Source of the DNA: Candidatus Heimdallarchaeota archaeon B3_Heim
GTDB lineage: Archaea; Asgardarchaeota; Heimdallarchaeia; Hodarchaeales; Hodarchaeaceae
Direction: 5' to 3'
Length of the DNA stretch: 32,000 bases
NCBI GenBank assembly: GCA_003144275.1
Contig: NJBF01000024.1
Span: 38,992-70,991, forward strand
Position 1 is the stretch's first letter. Every line of letters starts with the position of its first letter. Positions 15,640 to 26,199 of the stretch are shown in pieces. The notes beneath the pieces were generated by a model that did not search any database, had not been told where the DNA came from, and worked only from the letters and a program-made list of their open reading frames with translations. Both the position numbers and the translations under genes were made by a program.

Positions 15640-17811
15640 TTACTTCTTTTTCATGGACTGTTTTTTATTCCGAATTTTAATGCCCTGAAAGGCATCAACC
15701 AGCGTTTCATATAGTAATTCAATCAATAGCGGTATTTCTGTCTCAGAGAAACCTAGGGCTCTAGCAATTGCTATATCCAAATTTTCTCTCTTACTTTCAT
15801 ATATTTGGTCTGGAAGGGCCTTTACTTTTTCGGATCTGAGAATATCAAATGCCTCTAAAATATATTTTATGTCATTTGAGGAGCATTGAGAAATATCTAG
15901 GAAGATTTTCTCTCTCATATAATCAATGATTTGTAAACGACCATATGAACCACTAATCTCCCTTCTACTATTAATAAAGAGCAAAAAATAAAACGATGAA
16001 TTCAACCACGCCCCCAAAAATTTAGATTGGTGGTGATTTTTGTCAGTTAAGACGAAAAAATTCTTAGAAGCAGTTTTCTTCTCATCTAAGAAGAGTACAT
16101 TATTAGTTGCACTAGTCAATCCAAATTTATCAACAAAGAACAGATATCCCCAAGGTTTCTTTGTCGTTAATTGATCTTCAAGATGATTTATCCATCTGGT
16201 TTTGAATTTCTTCCTTGCTGGATTCGCGTAATCTTGAGTTTTCCTAATATAAGTTTTCACTGGAGAAGTTAACTGATTTAATGGCTCTGAGACAGAAAGC
16301 GCATAATCTGCAATAGTTGGTGTTATGTACCCTTGATAATTACTCTGTTTACGTAAAGCGCTTACTAGATATTTCTCTGGTAGAATTAATTTTTCTTCTC
16401 TTGATATTAATTCATAACCTTCATTTTTCTTCACAATTTGTGTCCAGATTTTATTTGGTAAGAAAAAGAAACCAGGACCATACATTTCAACCCCCCGTAC
16501 GATCTTTAGATCTAACTCTTCACCAGATCTTATTTTATTAGTTTTTAACAATTTCTGCCTTAGATCTAATATGTTTTCACTGTGAAAGTATCTCATCCAA
16601 TTCCATTCATTAAGCAGGTGTTTGGAATGAATTAATCGCGTAGATGAGATATTTTGTTGATTTTTTATAGAATTTCCGCAAATAAGAGAAAACTTAATCC
16701 CGTAATGATTATCAGATGTTCGTTTAGTAGCAACTAAGATCAGTTCTTTGAAATCACTGCCTTCAGAAAAAGATTTAATCTCATCGGAAGTAAGAATTGA
16801 GTCAATTTCATATTTTGACATCAAATAATTTTGAATACCTTTGGAATAATTTGACAAAAATGTTGATACAGGTAATATTGCACTCAGCGTTCCTCCATGT
16901 TTGAGAATCTGATCTGCTAGAAGAATAGAGTAAATGTGCAGTCCTGGTTGTCCAATTAGATATTTAATGTATTTTTGTATGAGGGGAACTAATACCTTTC
17001 TTTGACTGTCATCAATTCTGTGTGTTCTCGTGAAGGGGGGATTCATTAATACTAAATCAAAATCATTATCAAATGGTAACGAATTACTTCTCAATCTTGT
17101 TGGTAATCTTCTAAAAGCATCACCTATGGTCGCAATAAGTATACTAGGATCCAAATTATGTTTTTGCAATTTGATTAATATTCGAGAATATGCAATTACT
17201 ACGGCAGAAGGAACAAGATCATTAATCCAAATAAGACTCGGAAAATTCATAGACATATTTTTTTCTTCTAAATAGGCCGAAATTAATCTTCCTGATCCAC
17301 AAAACGGATCTATGATTTTGGTAAACGACTTCTCCGTAAGATTTGAACAGATAATTCGTGCGGAGGGTAGTGTAGTATAATTAGCCGCTAATTTTTTCCG
17401 ATAATTTCGTTCTAACGCATTCTGCACAATTGTACCAAAGATGTCACCATTGAGAATAGGTTCAATTTCTAGCGAATGGGGGGTGAAAAGAGAAAGGTCT
17501 TGTTTCAAATCGGCCAGATAACTGAACACTTCTTTCAGAAATTTCCATAACGATATATTTTTTTCATATTTCCTTTCTAAAAATCTTAAACTCTCCATAA
17601 CTGGTTCATAATTATTTATCCTATCATTCTCTTTTATCAGTGATTTTATTATCCATAATCCTAAAGAAATAGAAATGATCAGTTCTTCTTTCGTTGAAAT
17701 CAATTTTGGTAAAGAATCAAATCGCTTTTTATCATCAAAGGATTTAATCCAGTCATTGACATCCCTTTCTAATGAATTTTCAAACAATTCTGGATCTTGA
17801 ATGCATTCCAC
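15640..17811 (-). CDS. N6-adenine DNA methyltransferase (gamma class) with C-terminal target-recognition region; no nuclease domain seen
   Basis: Motif X ANYTT, motif I IIDPFCGSGRL, motif IV LVLMNPPFTR, ILPVSTF; GTG start at 17811. Confidence 0.85.
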   Translation of the reverse strand: MECIQDPELFENSLERDVNDWIKSFDDKKRFDSLPKLISTKEELIISISLGLWIIKSLIKENDRINNYEPVMESLRFLERKYEKNISLWKFLKEVFSYLADLKQDLSLFTPHSLEIEPILNGDIFGTIVQNALERNYRKKLAANYTTLPSARIICSNLTEKSFTKIIDPFCGSGRLISAYLEEKNMSMNFPSLIWINDLVPSAVVIAYSRILIKLQKHNLDPSILIATIGDAFRRLPTRLRSNSLPFDNDFDLVLMNPPFTRTHRIDDSQRKVLVPLIQKYIKYLIGQPGLHIYSILLADQILKHGGTLSAILPVSTFLSNYSKGIQNYLMSKYEIDSILTSDEIKSFSEGSDFKELILVATKRTSDNHYGIKFSLICGNSIKNQQNISSTRLIHSKHLLNEWNWMRYFHSENILDLRQKLLKTNKIRSGEELDLKIVRGVEMYGPGFFFLPNKIWTQIVKKNEGYELISREEKLILPEKYLVSALRKQSNYQGYITPTIADYALSVSEPLNQLTSPVKTYIRKTQDYANPARKKFKTRWINHLEDQLTTKKPWGYLFFVDKFGLTSATNNVLFLDEKKTASKNFFVLTDKNHHQSKFLGAWLNSSFYFLLFINSRREISGSYGRLQIIDYMREKIFLDISQCSSNDIKYILEAFDILRSEKVKALPDQIYESKRENLDIAIARALGFSETEIPLLIELLYETLVDAFQGIKIRNKKQSMKKK

Positions 17812-18049
17812 GCCCTTAGGTCATGGTATATTCCTATATGAAATCCTAATATGAAAGTAAAGAGTGAGGATGATTGATACACCGACTCAATGTATAAAAT
17901 TTAAATTAAATCCTTTTCTTCATAGAAACCTCAGAGAATCGAGAACGATTGGCTATCTCAAGAGAAATTCTGCAAAGTCAAAGTTTATAAATATTTTAAC
18001 TGTTAGATTACTTCGGATGAAATAAATGCAACATAGAGGGATCTACTAA

Positions 18050-19837
18050 ATGCTAAGTCTGAAATCAGCAATTTATATAATCATAGTCAGTATTATATCG
18101 GCTAGCTTAGTCTCCTCATTGGTAGTAATGAATACATTGTCAACTTCCTCACTCCCAACTGAAATTGAGGACAATGCCGAGGATAAGTTACTTATTACAA
18201 CCACAATTCAAGCCCGTCAAATTGCCTCACAATTGGGCAGAACGGAATCTGTTATCAACGCGATGAGTGCTTTTGCAGAGCAAATATGGACTGATACTAC
18301 GATTCCTGACATTCCTAGTTTTTATCATGACGAAAACGTGCTTAATAACCCTCCAACCGATGTTTATTATGATGAGGTTTACGAGCGAAGACTTTCTCAT
18401 CTCTACTCGGGTTATAAGATCGCCCCAACAGCATTTGAGGAATCATATCAAGACAGTTATTTAACAAGTATTCAAGAAACTGAAAATCCTTTATCACACA
18501 TTAACAGTACGGTGATGGCTGCAATCAACCGTTCAGCAAAAATGGACATGGTTTTCCGACAGCTCTATGAGGCTTATCCAGAACATGTTTGGCTCTATAT
18601 GGGGTACGAGTATGGCTTTCATAGATCTTTTCCCTGGCATGGGCCATATTCTCGTACTTATGATCCAAGGACACGTCCTTGGTATATCGGAGCAATTACT
18701 GGAGCGAAAGATGCGGTTATCATCATGGATATAAGCGGAAGCATGCAGGGTACTCCACTTACAAATACCAAAACTGCAATGAAATCCGTACTGAAAACAT
18801 TAGGACCTAAGGATCGATTTACTGTTCTCTCTTTTTCTGCCGATGTAGATGAGTGGGACAATACTTTACAAATCGCTTCTCCTTCAAATATCAATGATGC
18901 CTCTTCTTACATCGATGATCGTAGCTCGGGAGGAAACACAAATATTAATAGCGCACTTCTAGAAGGTCTTGAAATTTTAGAAAAACATGGAACCTCTGAT
19001 CGCACACCCATGCTTATATTCATGACTGATGGTGAAGCGACCTCAGGCATAACAGAATCTGATTTAATATTATCTAACGTCGCTACTGCGAATGTAATGG
19101 GAGCTAGAATGTTTGTTTTTGGATTAGGTACTGAAATTGATCAACAGCTCTTACTAAACCTTGGATCTCAAAATGATGGAGGGACAGTTTTTGTGTTCGA
19201 TTCTGAAGATCTAACAGATGCTATGAACCTTTATTATAAATTTTTTACCTCACAAATTGATAATGCTATTAGTTGGTCATGGCCTTACGTAGATGCGAGT
19301 GGTTGGGGTATAGTAATAACTGCTTCCAAGCCAGTAACAGTTAATGGTACTCTATTAGGAGTCGTTGGAGCAGATTTAACTCTCAATTCACTCATAGACA
19401 CACTTGCAGATTTACAGCCTTCAGATAATGGTTACAACTTCATCTTTGATACAGGTAATATAGCTCTAATCCATCCTAGCTTTACCGATCTACCTATTGG
19501 AGATTGGCAAGAAGAAGAAGTAAGAGTACCTATTTCTACATTGGAAAGTTCCTCAAATAGCTTTATCTCTCTAGTTGATCGTGTTAATCTTGGGATCCCT
19601 ACAGCAGGTACAGTCTATTATGGTACCGAAAAACGTGTTGTGGCAATGGCTCCAATTGGAGAAACTTCCATGCACTTAGCTTCTGTAGCCCCAATCTTAG
19701 AATTTCTTGATCCAACAACCATTACTGCATTAAAAGGAGTTAGCACCTTCGCTCTGCTTTGGCTTGGAGGCAGTATTTCTGTAGGTACAATAGCTGCACT
19801 AGTATTAGTGATAAAATTCAAGGAGGACTTTCATTGA
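18050..19837 (+). CDS. Membrane-anchored dCache_1 protein with inserted VWA domain (alpha2delta/CACHD1-like)
   Basis: N- and C-terminal TM helices; YDPRTRPWY (18659-18685) followed by KDAVIIMDISGS (MIDAS DxSxS 18728-18742), GGNTN, IFMTDG; Cache resumes at WSWPYVDASG...GVVGAD, then NGYNFIFD...LIHP. Confidence 0.9.
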   Translation: MLSLKSAIYIIIVSIISASLVSSLVVMNTLSTSSLPTEIEDNAEDKLLITTTIQARQIASQLGRTESVINAMSAFAEQIWTDTTIPDIPSFYHDENVLNNPPTDVYYDEVYERRLSHLYSGYKIAPTAFEESYQDSYLTSIQETENPLSHINSTVMAAINRSAKMDMVFRQLYEAYPEHVWLYMGYEYGFHRSFPWHGPYSRTYDPRTRPWYIGAITGAKDAVIIMDISGSMQGTPLTNTKTAMKSVLKTLGPKDRFTVLSFSADVDEWDNTLQIASPSNINDASSYIDDRSSGGNTNINSALLEGLEILEKHGTSDRTPMLIFMTDGEATSGITESDLILSNVATANVMGARMFVFGLGTEIDQQLLLNLGSQNDGGTVFVFDSEDLTDAMNLYYKFFTSQIDNAISWSWPYVDASGWGIVITASKPVTVNGTLLGVVGADLTLNSLIDTLADLQPSDNGYNFIFDTGNIALIHPSFTDLPIGDWQEEEVRVPISTLESSSNSFISLVDRVNLGIPTAGTVYYGTEKRVVAMAPIGETSMHLASVAPILEFLDPTTITALKGVSTFALLWLGGSISVGTIAALVLVIKFKEDFH

Positions 19838-21093
19838 AATCATACTATGGGTTCTCACGTTTCTTGGAAGATTCTGAAGATTGGAAAGCTATTATGGGTG
19901 GGTTGCTAGTAGCGATTATTATTATTTCTACTGCTTGCGTTGGCATTTTTATTCTTAGTTCTCAACAAGCAATGATTTTGGAAGATACCCCACTCCGACA
20001 GGTAGAAGATTTGCTTCATAACCAAGCAATAGAAAGCGCAGAATCTCTAGATGTGTTTTTTTCACGAATTGAAGGAATTACTAAGGTTGTTGGTGACTAT
20101 GCTACCCAATTGTGGGAAAAAAATGACTCTACTGGAAGACCAGTTTATTATCATAATTCAACATTTAATGCACCAACAGACTTCACTTATTCAGCTAAGC
20201 ATTTCCAGGGTGTATCCTATACTTTTTCTGGTTATAAAGTCGCTCCCTCTGCTTACAACAACCAAAGTGATTACCTCACCCTAGCTGACGACCAAACTTT
20301 TGGTGATTGGTCTCCAGAAGTTACTCATACAATCAATCTATCAGCTGATATGGACTTCGTATTCCAACCTATGTATCAATCAATGGATGAAATTCTTTGG
20401 ATTTACATGGGGACAGAGGTAGGTGTCCATCGATCTTATCCATATCACGGACCTTATAGCAAAGATTACGACCCCCGAATACGTTTATGGTATTTAACAG
20501 CTCTAGATACAGCTACAGGAAAAGTAGCCTTTACGACGCCTTACGTCGATGCCAGTTCTGGAAAAGTAATTGTCACTAGCTTATATCCAGTTCGAGATCA
20601 GAGTGAGACAACTATTGGAGTTGTAGGAATTGATTTCAAACTTACTACTATTCAATCAGCTGTAATGGAGATCAGTGTACGGAAAACTGGTAGAGCTTTT
20701 TTAATAAATCGAGATTTTGAGGTACTAGCCCATCCTGCTCATACCTTACCAAACGCTACATGGCGAGAAACAGATCTCCAGGTACCTATTACAACGTTAG
20801 AGACGAATAATGAAGAATTCCTTGATATTCTGGACCAAGCTCGAAATTACATTACAGTCCAAGAAATAATTGATTATGGTGGTTCCCTAGGAAAACAAAT
20901 AGTTTCTTTGGTACCAATGAACAAAACTGATTTAATTCTCGGTTTAGCTCTTACACAACATGATACAACTGCCCCAACGGTCAAAATCTTTGAAAATTTC
21001 TTCTTTCTTGGACTAATAGCGATAGATATTGTGTTAGGGGTTGTAGTTGTAGCAGCATTTATTCAATATCGAAAGCTAGCTCACGAAATGTAA
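19834..21093 (+). CDS. Membrane-anchored dCache_1 protein without VWA; paralog of the upstream gene
   Basis: TTG start at 19834 overlaps the upstream TGA (TTGA), with AGGAGG at 19821-19826; YDPRIRLWY (20467-20493), TTPYVDASSG, GVVGID, GRAFLIN...LAHP; two TM helices. Confidence 0.85.
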   Translation: MKSYYGFSRFLEDSEDWKAIMGGLLVAIIIISTACVGIFILSSQQAMILEDTPLRQVEDLLHNQAIESAESLDVFFSRIEGITKVVGDYATQLWEKNDSTGRPVYYHNSTFNAPTDFTYSAKHFQGVSYTFSGYKVAPSAYNNQSDYLTLADDQTFGDWSPEVTHTINLSADMDFVFQPMYQSMDEILWIYMGTEVGVHRSYPYHGPYSKDYDPRIRLWYLTALDTATGKVAFTTPYVDASSGKVIVTSLYPVRDQSETTIGVVGIDFKLTTIQSAVMEISVRKTGRAFLINRDFEVLAHPAHTLPNATWRETDLQVPITTLETNNEEFLDILDQARNYITVQEIIDYGGSLGKQIVSLVPMNKTDLILGLALTQHDTTAPTVKIFENFFFLGLIAIDIVLGVVVVAAFIQYRKLAHEM

Positions 21094-21284: not shown

Positions 21285-22754
21285 ATGGCAAAGAAGTATT
21301 ATTGTGGCCTTTGCGAGACCAGTCATAATGCCCTAAAATCAAGACATCAGTGTAACCAATGTGCTCGTTTCTACTGTGATTCAGCACTAGAGGATGCACG
21401 AACAGTTGGTGTTACAACCTGCGTTTTTTGCGAAGGAAAATTATCTCCATTTTTTCTTACAACGAGCTTACAATATCTTGCGGAAGATAAAAGAGTAGTG
21501 GATTCTGAGGGGAATAGTGAGGATACAACAAGTTATTCAGAATTCAGTTTAACTCAAGAAAATCTGGAAATTTCTTCTGAATCGGCCACATTTCCTTCAT
21601 ATAATATTGAGATTGATCAAAGGGATTTGGAAATAATCTGGCTGCTGCAAGAAATAGTTGCCAAAGAGATTCCTTTAATAGAAAATGAAGATCTCATCCA
21701 AACAAATTCTGGATTCATTGTCAAAAATCAGCGTATCGTTGGTTTAAGCCTTTTCAAACTAGAGATAAGGCGAGTTCCTGTTGAGATTGGAGAATTAACA
21801 GAGTTAGAAAGGTTATTTTTACGAGAGAACAGAATTGATAAATTACCTGACTTGAGTAGTCTAAAGATCTTGCAAGAACTAGATCTAAGCTATAATCAAT
21901 TAAGAGAATTACCTGCTACTCTGGGTGATATCCCCTCCCTTACTACTCTGATTTTGAACAATAACCGACTAAAGAAAATTCCTATTTCTCTCACTAGCCT
22001 ACAACTGAAGAAATTAAATTTGCAGGATAATCCTTGTTGGAATCATCAGCCTCGTAGTCGAAAATTGCAGCGTTGGATAGATAATTTAGTAAGTAATGGT
22101 TGTGAAGTATTCGATACTCCTAGAGATGGTGAATACCTAAATATTGTCTTATCCCCAAGTGAAGTGGAATTCTTAGAAGAGATAGAACGATTAATTGATA
22201 AACAAATAACGCATTCAGAAACAGCTGTCAATATATTAAATTTAGAACAATTAAAGAATTTTAAATTTGGATTTTGTTCTTCGTTCGAGAGAATTAAAGC
22301 TTTAGGATTAGGAAACCTAGGCCTTTCAACTTTACCACGTTCCATTCAGGGTTTAAATGCTATTGAAATGATAAATTTATCTCAAAATCGTTTTAGTCAA
22401 CTTCCACTAGAATTATTTACCTTGGTGTCCTTACAAGGACTCAATTTAGAAGATAATATACTCGATACACTTGATAGCGGGATTAGAAGTTTAACAGAAT
22501 TAAAAATATTAGATCTACAAACGAATAATCTTAAACGAGTACCCAAATCGTTAGGAAATTTAAGAAAACTTGAAATTCTTATCTTGAAAGACAATGATCT
22601 TATATCACTTCCTTCTTCCCTTAAAGATCTTCAAAACCTCAAAATGATCGATCTTCGTGGGAATCCTATATGGAATGAACGAGAAGATCGGCGTGAATTA
22701 CAAAAATGGATTCGTGACTTAAAAAAACGACATTGTGAAATTGTAGGTTTATGA
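21285..22754 (+). CDS. Cys-rich Zn-finger plus two capped leucine-rich-repeat modules
   Basis: CGLC...HQCNQC...FYC...CVFC at the N-terminus; LxxLxLxxNxL repeats (LERLFLRENRI, LQELDLSYNQL, LKILDLQTNNL); ATG at 21285 preferred over TTG at 21270. Confidence 0.85.
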   Translation: MAKKYYCGLCETSHNALKSRHQCNQCARFYCDSALEDARTVGVTTCVFCEGKLSPFFLTTSLQYLAEDKRVVDSEGNSEDTTSYSEFSLTQENLEISSESATFPSYNIEIDQRDLEIIWLLQEIVAKEIPLIENEDLIQTNSGFIVKNQRIVGLSLFKLEIRRVPVEIGELTELERLFLRENRIDKLPDLSSLKILQELDLSYNQLRELPATLGDIPSLTTLILNNNRLKKIPISLTSLQLKKLNLQDNPCWNHQPRSRKLQRWIDNLVSNGCEVFDTPRDGEYLNIVLSPSEVEFLEEIERLIDKQITHSETAVNILNLEQLKNFKFGFCSSFERIKALGLGNLGLSTLPRSIQGLNAIEMINLSQNRFSQLPLELFTLVSLQGLNLEDNILDTLDSGIRSLTELKILDLQTNNLKRVPKSLGNLRKLEILILKDNDLISLPSSLKDLQNLKMIDLRGNPIWNEREDRRELQKWIRDLKKRHCEIVGL

Positions 22755-25287: not shown

Positions 25288-25491
25288 TCAACGCGTAATA
25301 TATATATGAAAATAATCTCATTTACCAACCTCCAAAGTGAATGTGTTCTTAGACTAACAAATTTTGGTCTTCTGATCCTTTTTAAATAAGCCAAAGTATT
25401 ATAAACCTTTAGATTGAATTTAGAGATTAAATTAATCCTTTAAGAATTCTAAAGTTGATCCTATACCATTCCTAAGGTGGTTTTATTAACA

Positions 25492-26199
25492 ATGAAAGCG
25501 ATGATATTAAGAATTGGAATTGATAAAGGAACGGATGGTACTCTAGCGCCTATATTCAATGACAGAAGTTATGAATATATTCCAATGTCAGAACGAGATA
25601 ATAAATCAACAGAGCCAAGGAAGTATTCCAATACCAAAGGTAGATCAGGAAAGCTATTATCATACTATTTACCAAAAAGAGTAAAGGATCGCACAATTCA
25701 TTTCGATCCAGAATTCGAAACCATGACTTATGGAGATCCAACAATAAAGAGGAAGTATTTATTACGCCTTGCAAAAGATGATTTACTAGTATTTTATGCT
25801 GGTTTAACCCCTTTTAGGACTAAAAGATTTAAAGAAGGATTATTTATAATTGGATATTTTCTTGTTTCAGAAGTAGTAGAATTCAAAGTTCTCACAATGG
25901 AGGAAATAAAATCAACATACAATAGATTACATAATAATGCCCACGCGAAACGAAGCTACCATGCATCTGAGTTAGTTATCGTGACTGGAAGCTCAAGTAG
26001 TAGACTACTTGAAAGAGCAATTCCAATAAGCTCTACTAAAATGAATTCTATAGGTAGAAAATATCATGTTGTTTCACCAAAGATAGAAAAGCTCTTAGGA
26101 ATTAAAGGATCCATCCAACGAAGTATTCCTCCCCGTTTTATATACGATATAAAGAATATATCAAACCTAAGAACAATACTAAGTGAATCCCAATTATAG
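25492..26199 (+). CDS. Nmad3-like (nucleotide-modification-associated domain 3) protein
   Basis: ILRIGID, YEYIPMSE, IHFDPEFETMTYGDP, LAKDDLLVFYAGL, IIGYFLV, NNAHAK match the remembered Nmad3 consensus; ATG at 25492. Confidence 0.65.
   Translation: MKAMILRIGIDKGTDGTLAPIFNDRSYEYIPMSERDNKSTEPRKYSNTKGRSGKLLSYYLPKRVKDRTIHFDPEFETMTYGDPTIKRKYLLRLAKDDLLVFYAGLTPFRTKRFKEGLFIIGYFLVSEVVEFKVLTMEEIKSTYNRLHNNAHAKRSYHASELVIVTGSSSSRLLERAIPISSTKMNSIGRKYHVVSPKIEKLLGIKGSIQRSIPPRFIYDIKNISNLRTILSESQL

What the first reader, a model, noticed from the sequence alone, without database searches (positions are those of the whole stretch)
18050..21093. 'Split alpha2delta': coupled paralogs that together give the dCache(VWA)-dCache order
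Seen: the second gene starts at a TTG overlapping the first stop (TTGA, 19834-19837) with AGGAGG 7 nt upstream. The two are clear paralogs (SGYKIAPTAF/SGYKVAPSAY; WLYMGYEYGFHRSFPWHGPYSRTYDPRTRPWY/WIYMGTEVGVHRSYPYHGPYSKDYDPRIRLWY; PYVDASG/PYVDASS) and only the first has VWA. Established: alpha2delta has a VWA-containing dCache followed by a second dCache in one chain. Inference: a heterodimeric sensor that could resemble the pre-fusion state of alpha2delta.
Basis: partly seen in the sequence, partly recalled or inferred. Interest (0 to 1): 0.75.

Follow-up and report, generated by a model that had tools for sequence, protein, structure and literature searches.

The report
Two-gene archaeal alpha2delta-like sensor
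An Asgard archaeon carries two coupled genes that together look like the eukaryotic calcium-channel alpha2delta/CACHD1 subunit in two pieces, which suggests that this drug-target protein module is older than eukaryotes.

Summary
Gene 1 (18050-19837, 595 aa) and gene 2 (TTG 19834-21093, 419 aa) overlap in TTGA, with AGGAGG 7 nt upstream. They are paralogous double-Cache (dCache_1) proteins with a membrane helix at each end. Only gene 1 has a VWA domain, inserted into its amino-acid-binding motif.

Gene 1 is a true homologue of the VWA-interrupted first dCache of alpha2delta/CACHD1:
- It is 32% identical to a protist alpha2delta-like protein, collinear across both junctions.
- Its model (pLDDT 90) matches only alpha2delta-1 and CACHD1 over its whole length (Z 29).
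- Its MIDAS metal site is intact.

The pair is old. The same gene order holds in three Heimdallarchaeia families at 22-35% identity, and in one Planctomycetota contig. Natural one-chain fusions exist. A complex prediction passes (0.76; best control 0.00).

In trees, gene 2 groups with the eukaryotic second dCache (99/96). Gene 1 and the eukaryotic first dCache share the VWA insertion. AU tests do not reject separate duplications (p 0.3-0.4). Alpha2delta is also nested, whereas the archaeal fusion is tandem.

I read it as a heteromeric extracellular amino-acid sensor with no output domain of its own. The 'pre-fusion' history is favoured, not proven. I found no report of it in the papers searched. 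Earlier notes of this scan cover this same stretch only.

The parts
17984..17993 (+). TTTATAAATA, a possible archaeal TATA box about 56 nt before the start of gene 1 (inference only)
   Evidence: Read directly from the sequence. Not tested. The bacterial-type promoter and terminator scan was uninformative.
18036..18040 (+). GAGGG, a ribosome-binding-like site 9 nt before the ATG of gene 1
   Evidence: Sequence read.
18050..19837 (+). Gene 1 (P0001, 595 aa): N-terminal membrane helix, stalk helix, dCache_1 with a VWA inserted in the distal module, C-terminal membrane helix, 7-aa tail
   Evidence: ORF and translation. Pfam. Model with pLDDT 89.9. Whole-length fold matches go only to alpha2delta-1 and CACHD1.
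18071..18127 (+). Gene 1 N-terminal transmembrane helix (aa 8-26)
   Evidence: Hydropathy scan. Helix 4-32 in the model.
18659..18685 (+). Gene 1, N half of the amino-acid-binding motif: Y204-x4-R209-x-W211-Y212
   Evidence: Spacing is identical to PctA Y121/R126/W128/Y129 as defined in PMC8915833. R209 is invariant in the close clade.
18707..19246 (+). VWA domain inserted in the dCache (aa 220-399). MIDAS residues: D227-x-S229-x-S231 (nt 18728-18742), T297, D327
   Evidence: Pfam VWA E 1.9e-18. D227, S229, S231, D327 and G328 are invariant across 46 Asgard and eukaryotic sequences.
19286..19375 (+). Gene 1, C half of the amino-acid-binding motif: Y413 ... D442 (29 residues apart)
19745..19813 (+). 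Gene 1 C-terminal transmembrane helix (about aa 566-588)
   Evidence: Hydropathy scan. Model helix 555-589.
19821..19837 (+). Coupling site: AGGAGG (19821-19826), a 7-nt spacer, then TTGA, where the TTG start of gene 2 overlaps the TGA stop of gene 1
   Evidence: Gene 2 follows gene 1 with an overlap or a gap of a few bases in the other loci too.
19834..21093 (+). Gene 2 (P0002, 419 aa): membrane helix (aa 23-41), uninterrupted dCache_1 with a full amino-acid motif (Y212-R217-W219-Y220 at nt 20467-20493; Y237...D267 at nt 20542-20634), membrane helix (aa 392-410), 9-aa tail
21285..22754 (+). Zn-finger plus leucine-rich-repeat protein with no membrane helix. It is a conserved downstream neighbour within this genus only. 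It is a candidate cytoplasmic partner, which is an inference.
   Evidence: Pfam LRR_8 and a weak Prok-RING_2 match. No TM helix. It sits directly after the pair in L042, L043 and L044 at 96, 58 and 50% identity. It is absent from distant loci.

Best explanation
This is a two-gene, translationally coupled operon of an Asgard archaeon (Hodarchaeales/Kariarchaeaceae). It encodes an extracellular sensor built from two paralogous double-Cache proteins, each held in the membrane by a helix at both ends.

Shown:
- Gene 1 is a homologue of the first dCache of alpha2delta/CACHD1. A VWA domain with an intact MIDAS site is inserted at the same place, splitting the amino-acid-binding motif.
- Gene 2 is an uninterrupted dCache.
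- Both keep every residue of the dCache_1AA amino-acid pocket.
- Neither has a cytoplasmic output domain.

Inferred:
- The two ectodomains pair through their long stalk helices into a pseudo-symmetric heterodimer, and each binds an amino acid or GABA-like ligand.
- The VWA MIDAS site grips an acidic residue of a third membrane protein, as alpha2delta does with the channel. That protein, or in other lineages the cytoplasmic tail of gene 2, passes the signal on.

Evolution (favoured, not proven): the duplication and the VWA insertion predate the split between Heimdallarchaeia and eukaryotes, and eukaryotes joined the two genes into one chain.
For: Homology to alpha2delta:
- phmmer aligns P0001 152-484 in one stretch to alpha2delta-1 176-533 (E 6e-18), and also matches CACHD1.
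- BLASTP to the Pharyngomonas alpha2delta-like P0223 gives 32% identity over 335 aa (E 2e-42). There is no gap at the N junction and one 1-aa gap at the C junction.
- In Foldseek the top 14 hits are all alpha2delta-1 or CACHD1 (E 1e-32, TMq 0.66). The next hits are VWA-only.
- VIA-align gives Z 29.2, 471 residues aligned, rmsd 4.0 A, with model 45-552 matching alpha2delta-1 73-628.
- After the Asgard family, the best matches of a profile search of 1.84 billion representatives that span both dCache flanks and the VWA are N-VWA-C-N-C proteins; proteins with several VWA copies score among them on VWA alone. Those I could trace are eukaryotic: Pharyngomonas, Ploeotia, Bolivina, Nonionella, Salpingoeca, Pecten, Saccoglossus, and contigs carrying Tim17 or Ku.

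Motifs:
- The MIDAS residues are invariant across 46 Asgard and eukaryotic sequences.
- The AA motif is intact in both genes.

Pairing:
- ipSAE is 0.76 and the best of 3 controls is 0.00. This mark was reached by 58 of 80 solved complexes and 2 of 110 mismatched pairs; these counts hold only roughly because my own alignments were used. The runs share at least 77% of contacts and the partner pLDDT is at least 85.
- The same gene order holds in L007, L008, L010 and in three Asgard families.
- Two natural fusions exist: P0016, with the two middle TM helices removed, and P0026.

History:
- Gene 2 plus the eukaryotic second dCache has support 99/96, and 95 after junction columns and long branches are dropped.
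- E1 and E2 are each monophyletic (100/97 and 100/99).
- The constrained tree ((A1,E1),(A2,E2)) has the best likelihood.

A third partner:
- In the Planctomycetota contig a single-pass receptor Ser/Thr kinase with an extracellular domain overlaps the stop of gene 2.
Against: - No experiment or RNA data exist for any member.
- The complex pass may partly come from the model's memory of solved dCache dimers and of alpha2delta itself.
- AU tests do not reject an all-Asgard clade (p 0.30), a clade of both eukaryotic dCaches (p 0.38), or both together (p 0.42). Only 134 alignment columns were usable.
- The gene 1 plus eukaryotic first dCache grouping is weak (78/32) and is lost in the trimmed analysis.
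- P0026 shows that the VWA can be lost cleanly.
- The distribution in Asgard is patchy. About 12 of 400 genomes have it, all in one class, and only 4 of 21 in the window's own genus.
- In the more distant f5/f6 clade the amino-acid motif is degraded in both genes, so amino-acid binding is not universal in the family.
- Neighbouring genes differ between lineages, so no output partner is identified.
Confidence: 0.68

Rival explanations
1. Independent duplications. An Asgard ancestor had only the VWA-interrupted dCache gene. It duplicated within Asgard and the copy lost its VWA. Eukaryotes duplicated and fused separately. The shared 'VWA-dCache then dCache' order would then be convergent, not a pre-fusion state.
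For: - AU tests do not reject it: dlnL 12.9 with p 0.30, dlnL 8.3 with p 0.38, and dlnL 8.9 with p 0.42 for the joint constraint.
- Genes 1 and 2 share motifs such as SGYK[IV]AP and are 35% identical in the N part.
- P0026 proves clean VWA loss inside the gene-1 clade, restoring a 16-17 residue loop.
- Alpha2delta is nested, while the archaeal fusion is tandem.
Against: - Every ML analysis puts gene 2 with the eukaryotic second dCache: 93 and 97 in the quick trees, 99/96 in the careful tree, 95 after trimming.
- The joint constraint has the lower likelihood.
- The C half of the eukaryotic second dCache leans towards the gene-2 profile more than the first dCache does. This is descriptive only and is not independent of the tree.
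Confidence: 0.27
2. Transfer from eukaryotes. A stem or early eukaryote gave an alpha2delta-like gene to a Heimdallarchaeial ancestor, where it split into two genes. The archaeal pair would then be a post-fusion fission product.
For: - Patchy distribution, found in one Asgard class only.
- This history predicts the same tree shape, (A1,E1),(A2,E2).
- The family has moved between domains at least once, because a Planctomycetota copy is nested among the Asgard ones.
Against: - Both eukaryotic dCache groups are monophyletic to the exclusion of Asgard (100/97 and 100/99), with Discoba, Rhizaria and Opisthokonta sampled. A post-LECA transfer is therefore disfavoured.
- The Asgard clade is itself deep, at 22-35% identity between families.
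- The nearest VWA-less relatives are archaeal Thermoplasmata HAMP receptors.
- Turning a nested chain into two complete genes, each with its own stalk helix and two membrane helices, needs several steps.
Confidence: 0.1
3. Two separate receptors. The two proteins do not pair. Each forms a homodimer like bacterial dCache receptors, and they are co-expressed only because they sense related ligands.
For: - Bacterial dCache_1 receptors are homodimers (established knowledge).
- The prediction tool can pass close relatives of a true partner (caveats). A paralogue of a self-associating protein is exactly such a case.
Against: - Strict adjacency and start/stop overlap are kept across more than three families and into a bacterium.
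- Two independent natural fusions into one chain exist.
- Neither gene was found alone. These two are also the only dCache_1 genes in the genome.
Confidence: 0.15

Closest known systems
Voltage-gated calcium channel alpha2delta subunits (CACNA2D1-4) and CACHD1
   Same: - A dCache_1 whose distal module is interrupted by a VWA at the same loop, splitting the Y-x4-R-x-W-Y ... Y-x~29-D amino-acid motif.
- An intact DxSxS MIDAS site.
- An extracellular, membrane-tethered protein without an enzymatic output.
- A second dCache as a partner.
- The whole-ectodomain fold matches (Z 29, 471 residues).
   Different: - The two dCaches are separate genes, each with its own stalk helix and two membrane helices.
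- No nesting of the first dCache inside the second.
- No VGCC_alpha2 Pfam match, and no delta peptide or GPI anchor.
- No Cav-type channel was detected in the genome.
- Both pockets keep the full motif. In alpha2delta-1 only the first does, and in CACHD1 only the second (PMC8915833).
Eukaryotic single-dCache proteins with a VWA insertion (protists and invertebrates; Gumerov et al. 2022)
   Same: One dCache_1 with an inserted VWA and a size of about 540-640 aa, like gene 1 alone.
   Different: They are eukaryotic, with no paired paralogue gene next door. In my parse their post-VWA part matches only briefly.
Bacterial and archaeal dCache_1AA receptors (PctA, PctB, Mlp24, Thermoplasmata HAMP proteins)
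   Same: Topology of TM, dCache, TM. The same amino-acid motif. Gene 2's best solved-structure match is PctA (E 1.5e-15).
   Different: Those proteins carry HAMP plus MCP, kinase or cyclase outputs and are homodimers. Here the cytoplasmic tails are 7-9 residues long and the partner is a diverged paralogue carrying a VWA.
Inter-alpha-trypsin-inhibitor heavy chain and prokaryotic VIT-VWA proteins
   Same: The VWA of gene 1 is closest in raw score to this class (80 bits to ITIH1; VWA-only hits of 160-174 bits).
   Different: They have no Cache flanks. In the VWA tree they form their own clade (93), while the eukaryotic alpha2delta-type VWAs sit next to the Asgard ones.

Membership tests
alpha2delta / CACHD1 | VWA domain inserted in the distal module of a dCache_1, between the two halves of the amino-acid motif | tested here: met
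   One collinear alignment crosses both junctions. Fold match Z 29.2 over 471 residues. Foldseek top 14 hits.
alpha2delta / CACHD1 | MIDAS motif DxSxS plus T plus D in the VWA (perfect in alpha2delta-1 and -2) | tested here: met
   D227, S229, S231, T297 and D327 are present. The D, S, S and D positions are invariant in 46 Asgard and eukaryotic sequences.
alpha2delta / CACHD1 | A second dCache_1 in the same polypeptide, with the first dCache nested after the second's stalk helix | tested here: not met
   The second dCache is a separate gene. The natural fusion P0016 is tandem, not nested.
alpha2delta / CACHD1 | VGCC_alpha2 (PF08473) region | tested here: not met
   No PF08473 match at E <= 0.01 in either protein.
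alpha2delta / CACHD1 | Cleavage into alpha2 and delta with a GPI anchor, or a single C-terminal TM helix as in CACHD1 | tested here: not met
   Both proteins have an N-terminal and a C-terminal membrane helix. Cleavage cannot be tested here.
alpha2delta / CACHD1 | Association with a Cav alpha1 channel (or with FZD5/LRP6 for CACHD1) | tested here: inconclusive
   No Ion_trans match above the Pfam cut-off in a genome that is 94% complete. Binding itself is not testable with these tools.
dCache_1AA amino-acid sensors (Gumerov 2022) | Motif Y-x4-R-x-W-Y ... Y-x27-34-D | tested here: met
   Gene 1: Y204, R209, W211, Y212, Y413, D442. Gene 2: Y212, R217, W219, Y220, Y237, D267.
dCache_1AA amino-acid sensors (Gumerov 2022) | dCache flanked by two membrane helices | tested here: met
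dCache_1AA amino-acid sensors (Gumerov 2022) | Cytoplasmic signalling domain after the second membrane helix | tested here: not met
   Tails are 7 and 9 residues long. Some orthologues of gene 2 have Zn-ribbon or longer tails.
dCache_1AA amino-acid sensors (Gumerov 2022) | Pfam dCache_1 match above the gathering score (45 bits) | tested here: inconclusive
   Gene 2 scores 59.2 bits and passes. Gene 1 scores 36.2 bits and fails because the VWA splits the domain. This may explain why earlier censuses missed gene 1.

The most novel reading that the evidence does not exclude
The alpha2delta/CACHD1 module (an amino-acid-sensing dCache with an inserted MIDAS VWA, plus a second dCache) arose in Heimdallarchaeia as a two-gene heterodimeric receptor. 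The eukaryotic stem inherited it and joined the genes into one chain. Alpha2delta would then be an Asgard-derived eukaryotic signature protein. This would replace the published view that the dCache came from Bacteria and that the VWA insertion and the doubling happened around LECA.
Probability: 0.5. Interest if true: 0.85.

Novelty: new variant of a known kind. Interest (0 to 1): 0.78.

Why it matters
Alpha2delta subunits are the targets of gabapentin and pregabalin, and their Cache domains are still poorly understood. The only published account of their origin that I found (PMC8915833) says that every VWA-interrupted dCache is eukaryotic and that the insertion happened around LECA, after a transfer from Bacteria. 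It does not mention Asgard archaea.

This finding shows the same insertion, with the same junctions and an intact MIDAS site, in Heimdallarchaeia, the archaeal class to which the window's genome belongs and which I recall from published work (not checked here) as the closest to eukaryotes. There it is paired with a second dCache as a separate gene.

This matters in three ways:
- It moves the invention of the module to before LECA, or it reveals an ancient exchange between the two lineages.
- It adds a membrane-receptor family to the proteins shared by Asgard archaea and eukaryotes.
- It offers a small, intron-free, two-piece system in which to test how a VWA-bearing dCache senses amino acids and passes the signal on without a tail of its own.

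Tried and rejected
- Folding the natural fusion P0016 from a single sequence failed (pLDDT 31.7). The fused arrangement could therefore not be compared with alpha2delta.
With the close alignment A4 it found only four loci.
- The 'longer' homologue search returned one crinoid alpha2delta and no long prokaryotic form. This is weak evidence only.
- A search for an indel shared by gene 2 and the eukaryotic second dCache, or by gene 1 and the first, found none.
- The sigma-70 promoter and intrinsic terminator scan matched chance and does not suit archaea.
- No Ion_trans channel scored above the cut-off in the genome. A 20-bit hit on contig C83 was not followed up.
- AU tests could not separate the two duplication histories.
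- Recent lineage-specific duplication was considered and rejected. The pair is shared by families at 22-35% identity, and both halves of P0026 and P0016 fall inside the gene-1 and gene-2 clades.
- A misbinned eukaryotic contig was considered and rejected. The window has prokaryotic gene density and coupling, the relatives at 70-92% identity are named Heimdall/Hodarchaeota MAGs, and the genome is 94% complete with 4% contamination.
Full report
**Observation.** The window holds an ORF at 18050-19837 (+, 595 aa, P0001). A second frame ends at 21093. The TGA stop of gene 1 is at 19835-19837 and a TTG lies at 19834-19836 in the frame of gene 2, so the genes overlap as TTGA. AGGAGG is at 19821-19826, 7 nt upstream. 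Publicly annotated homologues of gene 2 are 419 aa and start at this same position, so I take 19834 as the start (P0002, 419 aa). BLASTP of the two products gives two collinear matches on either side of the VWA of gene 1: E 2e-33 (35% identity) and E 1e-19. Pfam finds VWA only in gene 1 (E 1.9e-18, residues 221-388). It finds dCache_1, MCP-like_PDC_1 and weak VWA_N matches in both.

**Anatomy.** Each protein has a membrane helix near each end and almost no cytoplasmic tail, 7 and 9 residues respectively. Gene 1 carries the amino-acid motif of dCache_1AA sensors split by the VWA: Y204, R209, W211 and Y212 before it, and Y413 and D442 after it. Gene 2 has the same motif unsplit: Y212, R217, W219, Y220, Y237, D267. 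The spacing matches the definition in Gumerov et al. 2022 (PMC8915833). The VWA has a complete MIDAS site (D227-x-S229-x-S231, T297, D327). These two genes are the only dCache_1 matches in the 3.9-Mb genome.

**Organism.** Homologues at 87-92% identity are named Candidatus Kariarchaeaceae, Hodarchaeales or Heimdallarchaeota archaeon. The assembly is 94% complete with 4% contamination.

**Relation to alpha2delta.** Several results agree.
- phmmer against PDB sequences aligns P0001 152-484 in a single stretch to alpha2delta-1 176-533 (E 6e-18) and to CACHD1.
- Against an alpha2delta-like protein of the protist Pharyngomonas (P0223), BLASTP gives 32% identity over 335 residues (E 2e-42). The alignment runs through the pre-VWA dCache, the VWA and the post-VWA dCache. 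It has no gap at the first junction and one 1-residue gap at the second.
- An AlphaFold2 model of P0001, made with a 46-row alignment, has mean pLDDT 89.9.
- In Foldseek the top 14 PDB hits are all alpha2delta-1 or CACHD1 (E 1e-32, TMq about 0.66). The next hits cover only the VWA.
- VIA-align gives Z 29.2, 471 aligned residues and rmsd 4.0 A. Model 45-552 aligns to alpha2delta-1 73-628, which is the first dCache with its own stalk helix and the VWA.
- A profile of 18 gene-1 relatives was searched against 1.84 billion representative proteins. After about 15 Asgard-type clusters, the best matches that span both dCache flanks and the VWA were roughly 1000-1300-aa proteins with the order N-VWA-C-N-C, and 540-640-aa proteins with one VWA-interrupted dCache. 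A few proteins with several VWA copies score among them on VWA alone.
- Every one of the VWA-interrupted proteins that I could trace is eukaryotic: Pharyngomonas, Ploeotia, Bolivina, Nonionella, Salpingoeca, Pecten, Saccoglossus, an MMETSP transcript, and metagenome contigs carrying Tim17 or Ku70/80.
- The MIDAS residues and several Cache positions are invariant across Asgard and eukaryotic sequences.

Gene 1 is therefore a true homologue of the VWA-interrupted dCache of alpha2delta/CACHD1. Its Pfam dCache_1 score (36 bits) is below the 45-bit cut-off, which may explain why a census based on that model did not list it.

**The pair is old and behaves as a unit.** In contigs whose gene 1 is 46-54% identical, the dCache paralogue follows at once (L007, L008, L010). 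In 400 Asgard species genomes, full-length gene-1 matches occur in about 12, all in the window's class: 4 of 21 in its own genus, 1 of 3 in a second family and 7 of 12 in a third. In these loci, at 22-35% identity, a gene-2-type ORF again overlaps or abuts the end of gene 1 wherever the locus reaches far enough.

Two natural fusions exist.
- P0016 (993 aa) is gene 1 followed by gene 2. The two middle membrane helices are gone, and it has a C-terminal membrane helix and a Zn-ribbon tail.
- P0026 (863 aa) keeps all four membrane helices but has no VWA.

The complex predictor supports binding of the two ectodomains. The score is 0.76 and the best of 3 controls is 0.00. This mark was reached by 58 of 80 solved complexes and 2 of 110 mismatched pairs; these counts hold only roughly because I used my own alignments. 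The runs agree in at least 77% of contacts and the partner pLDDT is at least 85. The interface is the two stalk helices (P0001 46-86, P0002 60-103) plus helices 167-176 and 175-184. Because dCache dimers and alpha2delta have been solved, this pass may partly reflect likeness to those structures.

**Which paralogue matches which eukaryotic dCache?** I cut out dCache units (VWA excised) from Asgard gene 1 (A1), gene 2 (A2), the eukaryotic first (E1) and second (E2) dCaches, VWA-less archaeal relatives and bacterial chemoreceptors. I aligned them to one HMM and kept the 134 columns of the distal module that all groups share.
- The careful tree (104 rows, LG+C20+F+G4) gives A2+E2 at 99/96, A1 at 98/92, E1 at 100/97, E2 at 100/99 and A1+E1 at 78/32.
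- The quick trees agree.
- After I dropped the junction columns and the long branches, A2+E2 still had 95, but A1+E1 was no longer recovered.
- The AU tests are not decisive. Holding all Asgard units together costs 12.9 lnL (p 0.30). Holding E1+E2 together costs 8.3 lnL (p 0.38). Under LG+F+G4 the tree ((A1,E1),(A2,E2)) is best, but ((A1,A2),(E1,E2)) is only 8.9 lnL worse (p-AU 0.42).
- A tree of the VWA domains places the eukaryotic VWAs next to the Asgard ones and apart from VIT-VWA-type proteins, with weak support.
- No shared indel settles the question.

The history in which both genes existed before the Asgard/eukaryote split is therefore favoured but not proven. The monophyly of both eukaryotic groups argues against a post-LECA transfer into Asgard.

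**Differences from alpha2delta.** In alpha2delta the first dCache is nested in the second, after the second's stalk helix (PMC8915833). Here each gene has its own stalk helix, and the archaeal fusion P0016 is a plain tandem. A simple read-through of this operon would therefore not give the eukaryotic order. In addition:
- There is no VGCC_alpha2 match.
- Both ends of each protein are membrane helices.
- No Cav-like channel scored above the cut-off in the genome.

**The family is not strictly Asgard.** The 180-kb contig of L010/L045 is labelled Planctomycetota and carries bacterial genes (MshEN/T2SSE, PEP-CTERM). P0026 lies next to a sigma-70 gene. Both fall inside the Asgard gene-1 and gene-2 clades, so they are most simply explained as transfers into bacteria. 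P0026 shows that the VWA can be lost cleanly.

**How it probably works.** Shown: two extracellular dCache_1AA pockets, one MIDAS VWA and no output domain. Inferred: a heterodimer that binds amino acids or GABA-like ligands and signals through a third protein held by the VWA, as alpha2delta and CACHD1 do.

The neighbouring genes fit a sensor with exchangeable outputs.
- In the window's genus a cytoplasmic Zn-finger-LRR protein follows the pair (96, 58 and 50% identity in L042-L044).
- L007 has an Arf/Roc-type GTPase and a receiver domain.
- In the Planctomycetota contig a single-pass receptor Ser/Thr kinase with an extracellular repeat domain overlaps the stop of gene 2.
- Some gene-2 orthologues carry Zn-ribbon or longer cytoplasmic tails.
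- In the distant f5/f6 clade the amino-acid motif is degraded while MIDAS is kept, so the ligand may differ there.

**Novelty.** Full-text searches for Asgard together with alpha2delta or dCache found no paper describing this. The 2022 study places the VWA insertion and the doubling around LECA, after a transfer from Bacteria, and does not mention Asgard. Earlier notes of this scan concern this same stretch only.

Noticed in passing
window 21285-22754 (ORF listed from TTG 21270): A cytoplasmic protein with an N-terminal Cys-rich Zn finger (weak Prok-RING_2 match) and two LRR blocks. It stays directly downstream of the pair in three same-genus genomes (96, 58 and 50% identity). It evolves faster than the pair (gene 1 at 92/81/72% and gene 2 at 97/78/70% in the same three loci).
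   Followed up: partly
L010 8001-13218 (same contig as L045, JAJDCR010000069.1, labelled Planctomycetota bacterium): A bacterial contig carries the same pair at 46% and 42% identity. A receptor Ser/Thr kinase overlaps the stop of gene 2: kinase domain at 13-269, TM helix at 318-336, and an extracellular region with three YEPNN...DWF repeats. In the trees it is nested among the Asgard sequences, so it is probably a transfer into bacteria.
   Followed up: partly
L006 2619-5210 (P0026, Logan SRR18725158): An 863-aa fusion of a gene-1-type dCache without VWA and a gene-2-type dCache, with all four membrane helices kept, next to a sigma-70 gene. The first half is sister to the Planctomycetota gene 1 (100/95), which makes this a clean secondary loss of the VWA.
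   Followed up: partly
L005 1416-4397 (P0016, ENA ERZ27237645): A 993-aa natural fusion of gene 1 and gene 2. The two middle membrane helices are deleted, and it has a C-terminal membrane helix and a CxxC...CxxC Zn-ribbon tail. This is the most alpha2delta/CACHD1-like single chain seen in a prokaryote-type contig.
   Followed up: partly
L012 1498-3288 (G068, same genus): The gene-1 orthologue has one in-frame TGA that splits it into 197-aa and 399-aa pieces. It could be a pseudogene, a sequencing error or a recoded codon.
   Followed up: no
proteins P0236, P0242, P0245, P0249, P0322: Metagenomic proteins of about 870-940 aa with a gene-1-like dCache at the N terminus and a separate VWA near the C terminus. 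The Cache and VWA are in one chain but the VWA is not inserted. Their taxon is unknown.
   Followed up: no
P0105/P0350 (Thermoplasmata archaeon HAMP protein), P0254, P0247: The nearest VWA-less relatives of both paralogues are archaeal dCache-HAMP receptors, not bacterial chemoreceptors. Their motifs are very similar (YFGTEVGVHRSYPWH..YDP..WY).
   Followed up: partly
window 15640-17811 (-) and 25477-26199 (+): An Eco57I-type methyltransferase-like gene lies just upstream of the pair on the other strand. An Nmad3 (nucleotide modification associated domain 3) gene lies a few kb downstream. I saw no link to the pair.
   Followed up: no
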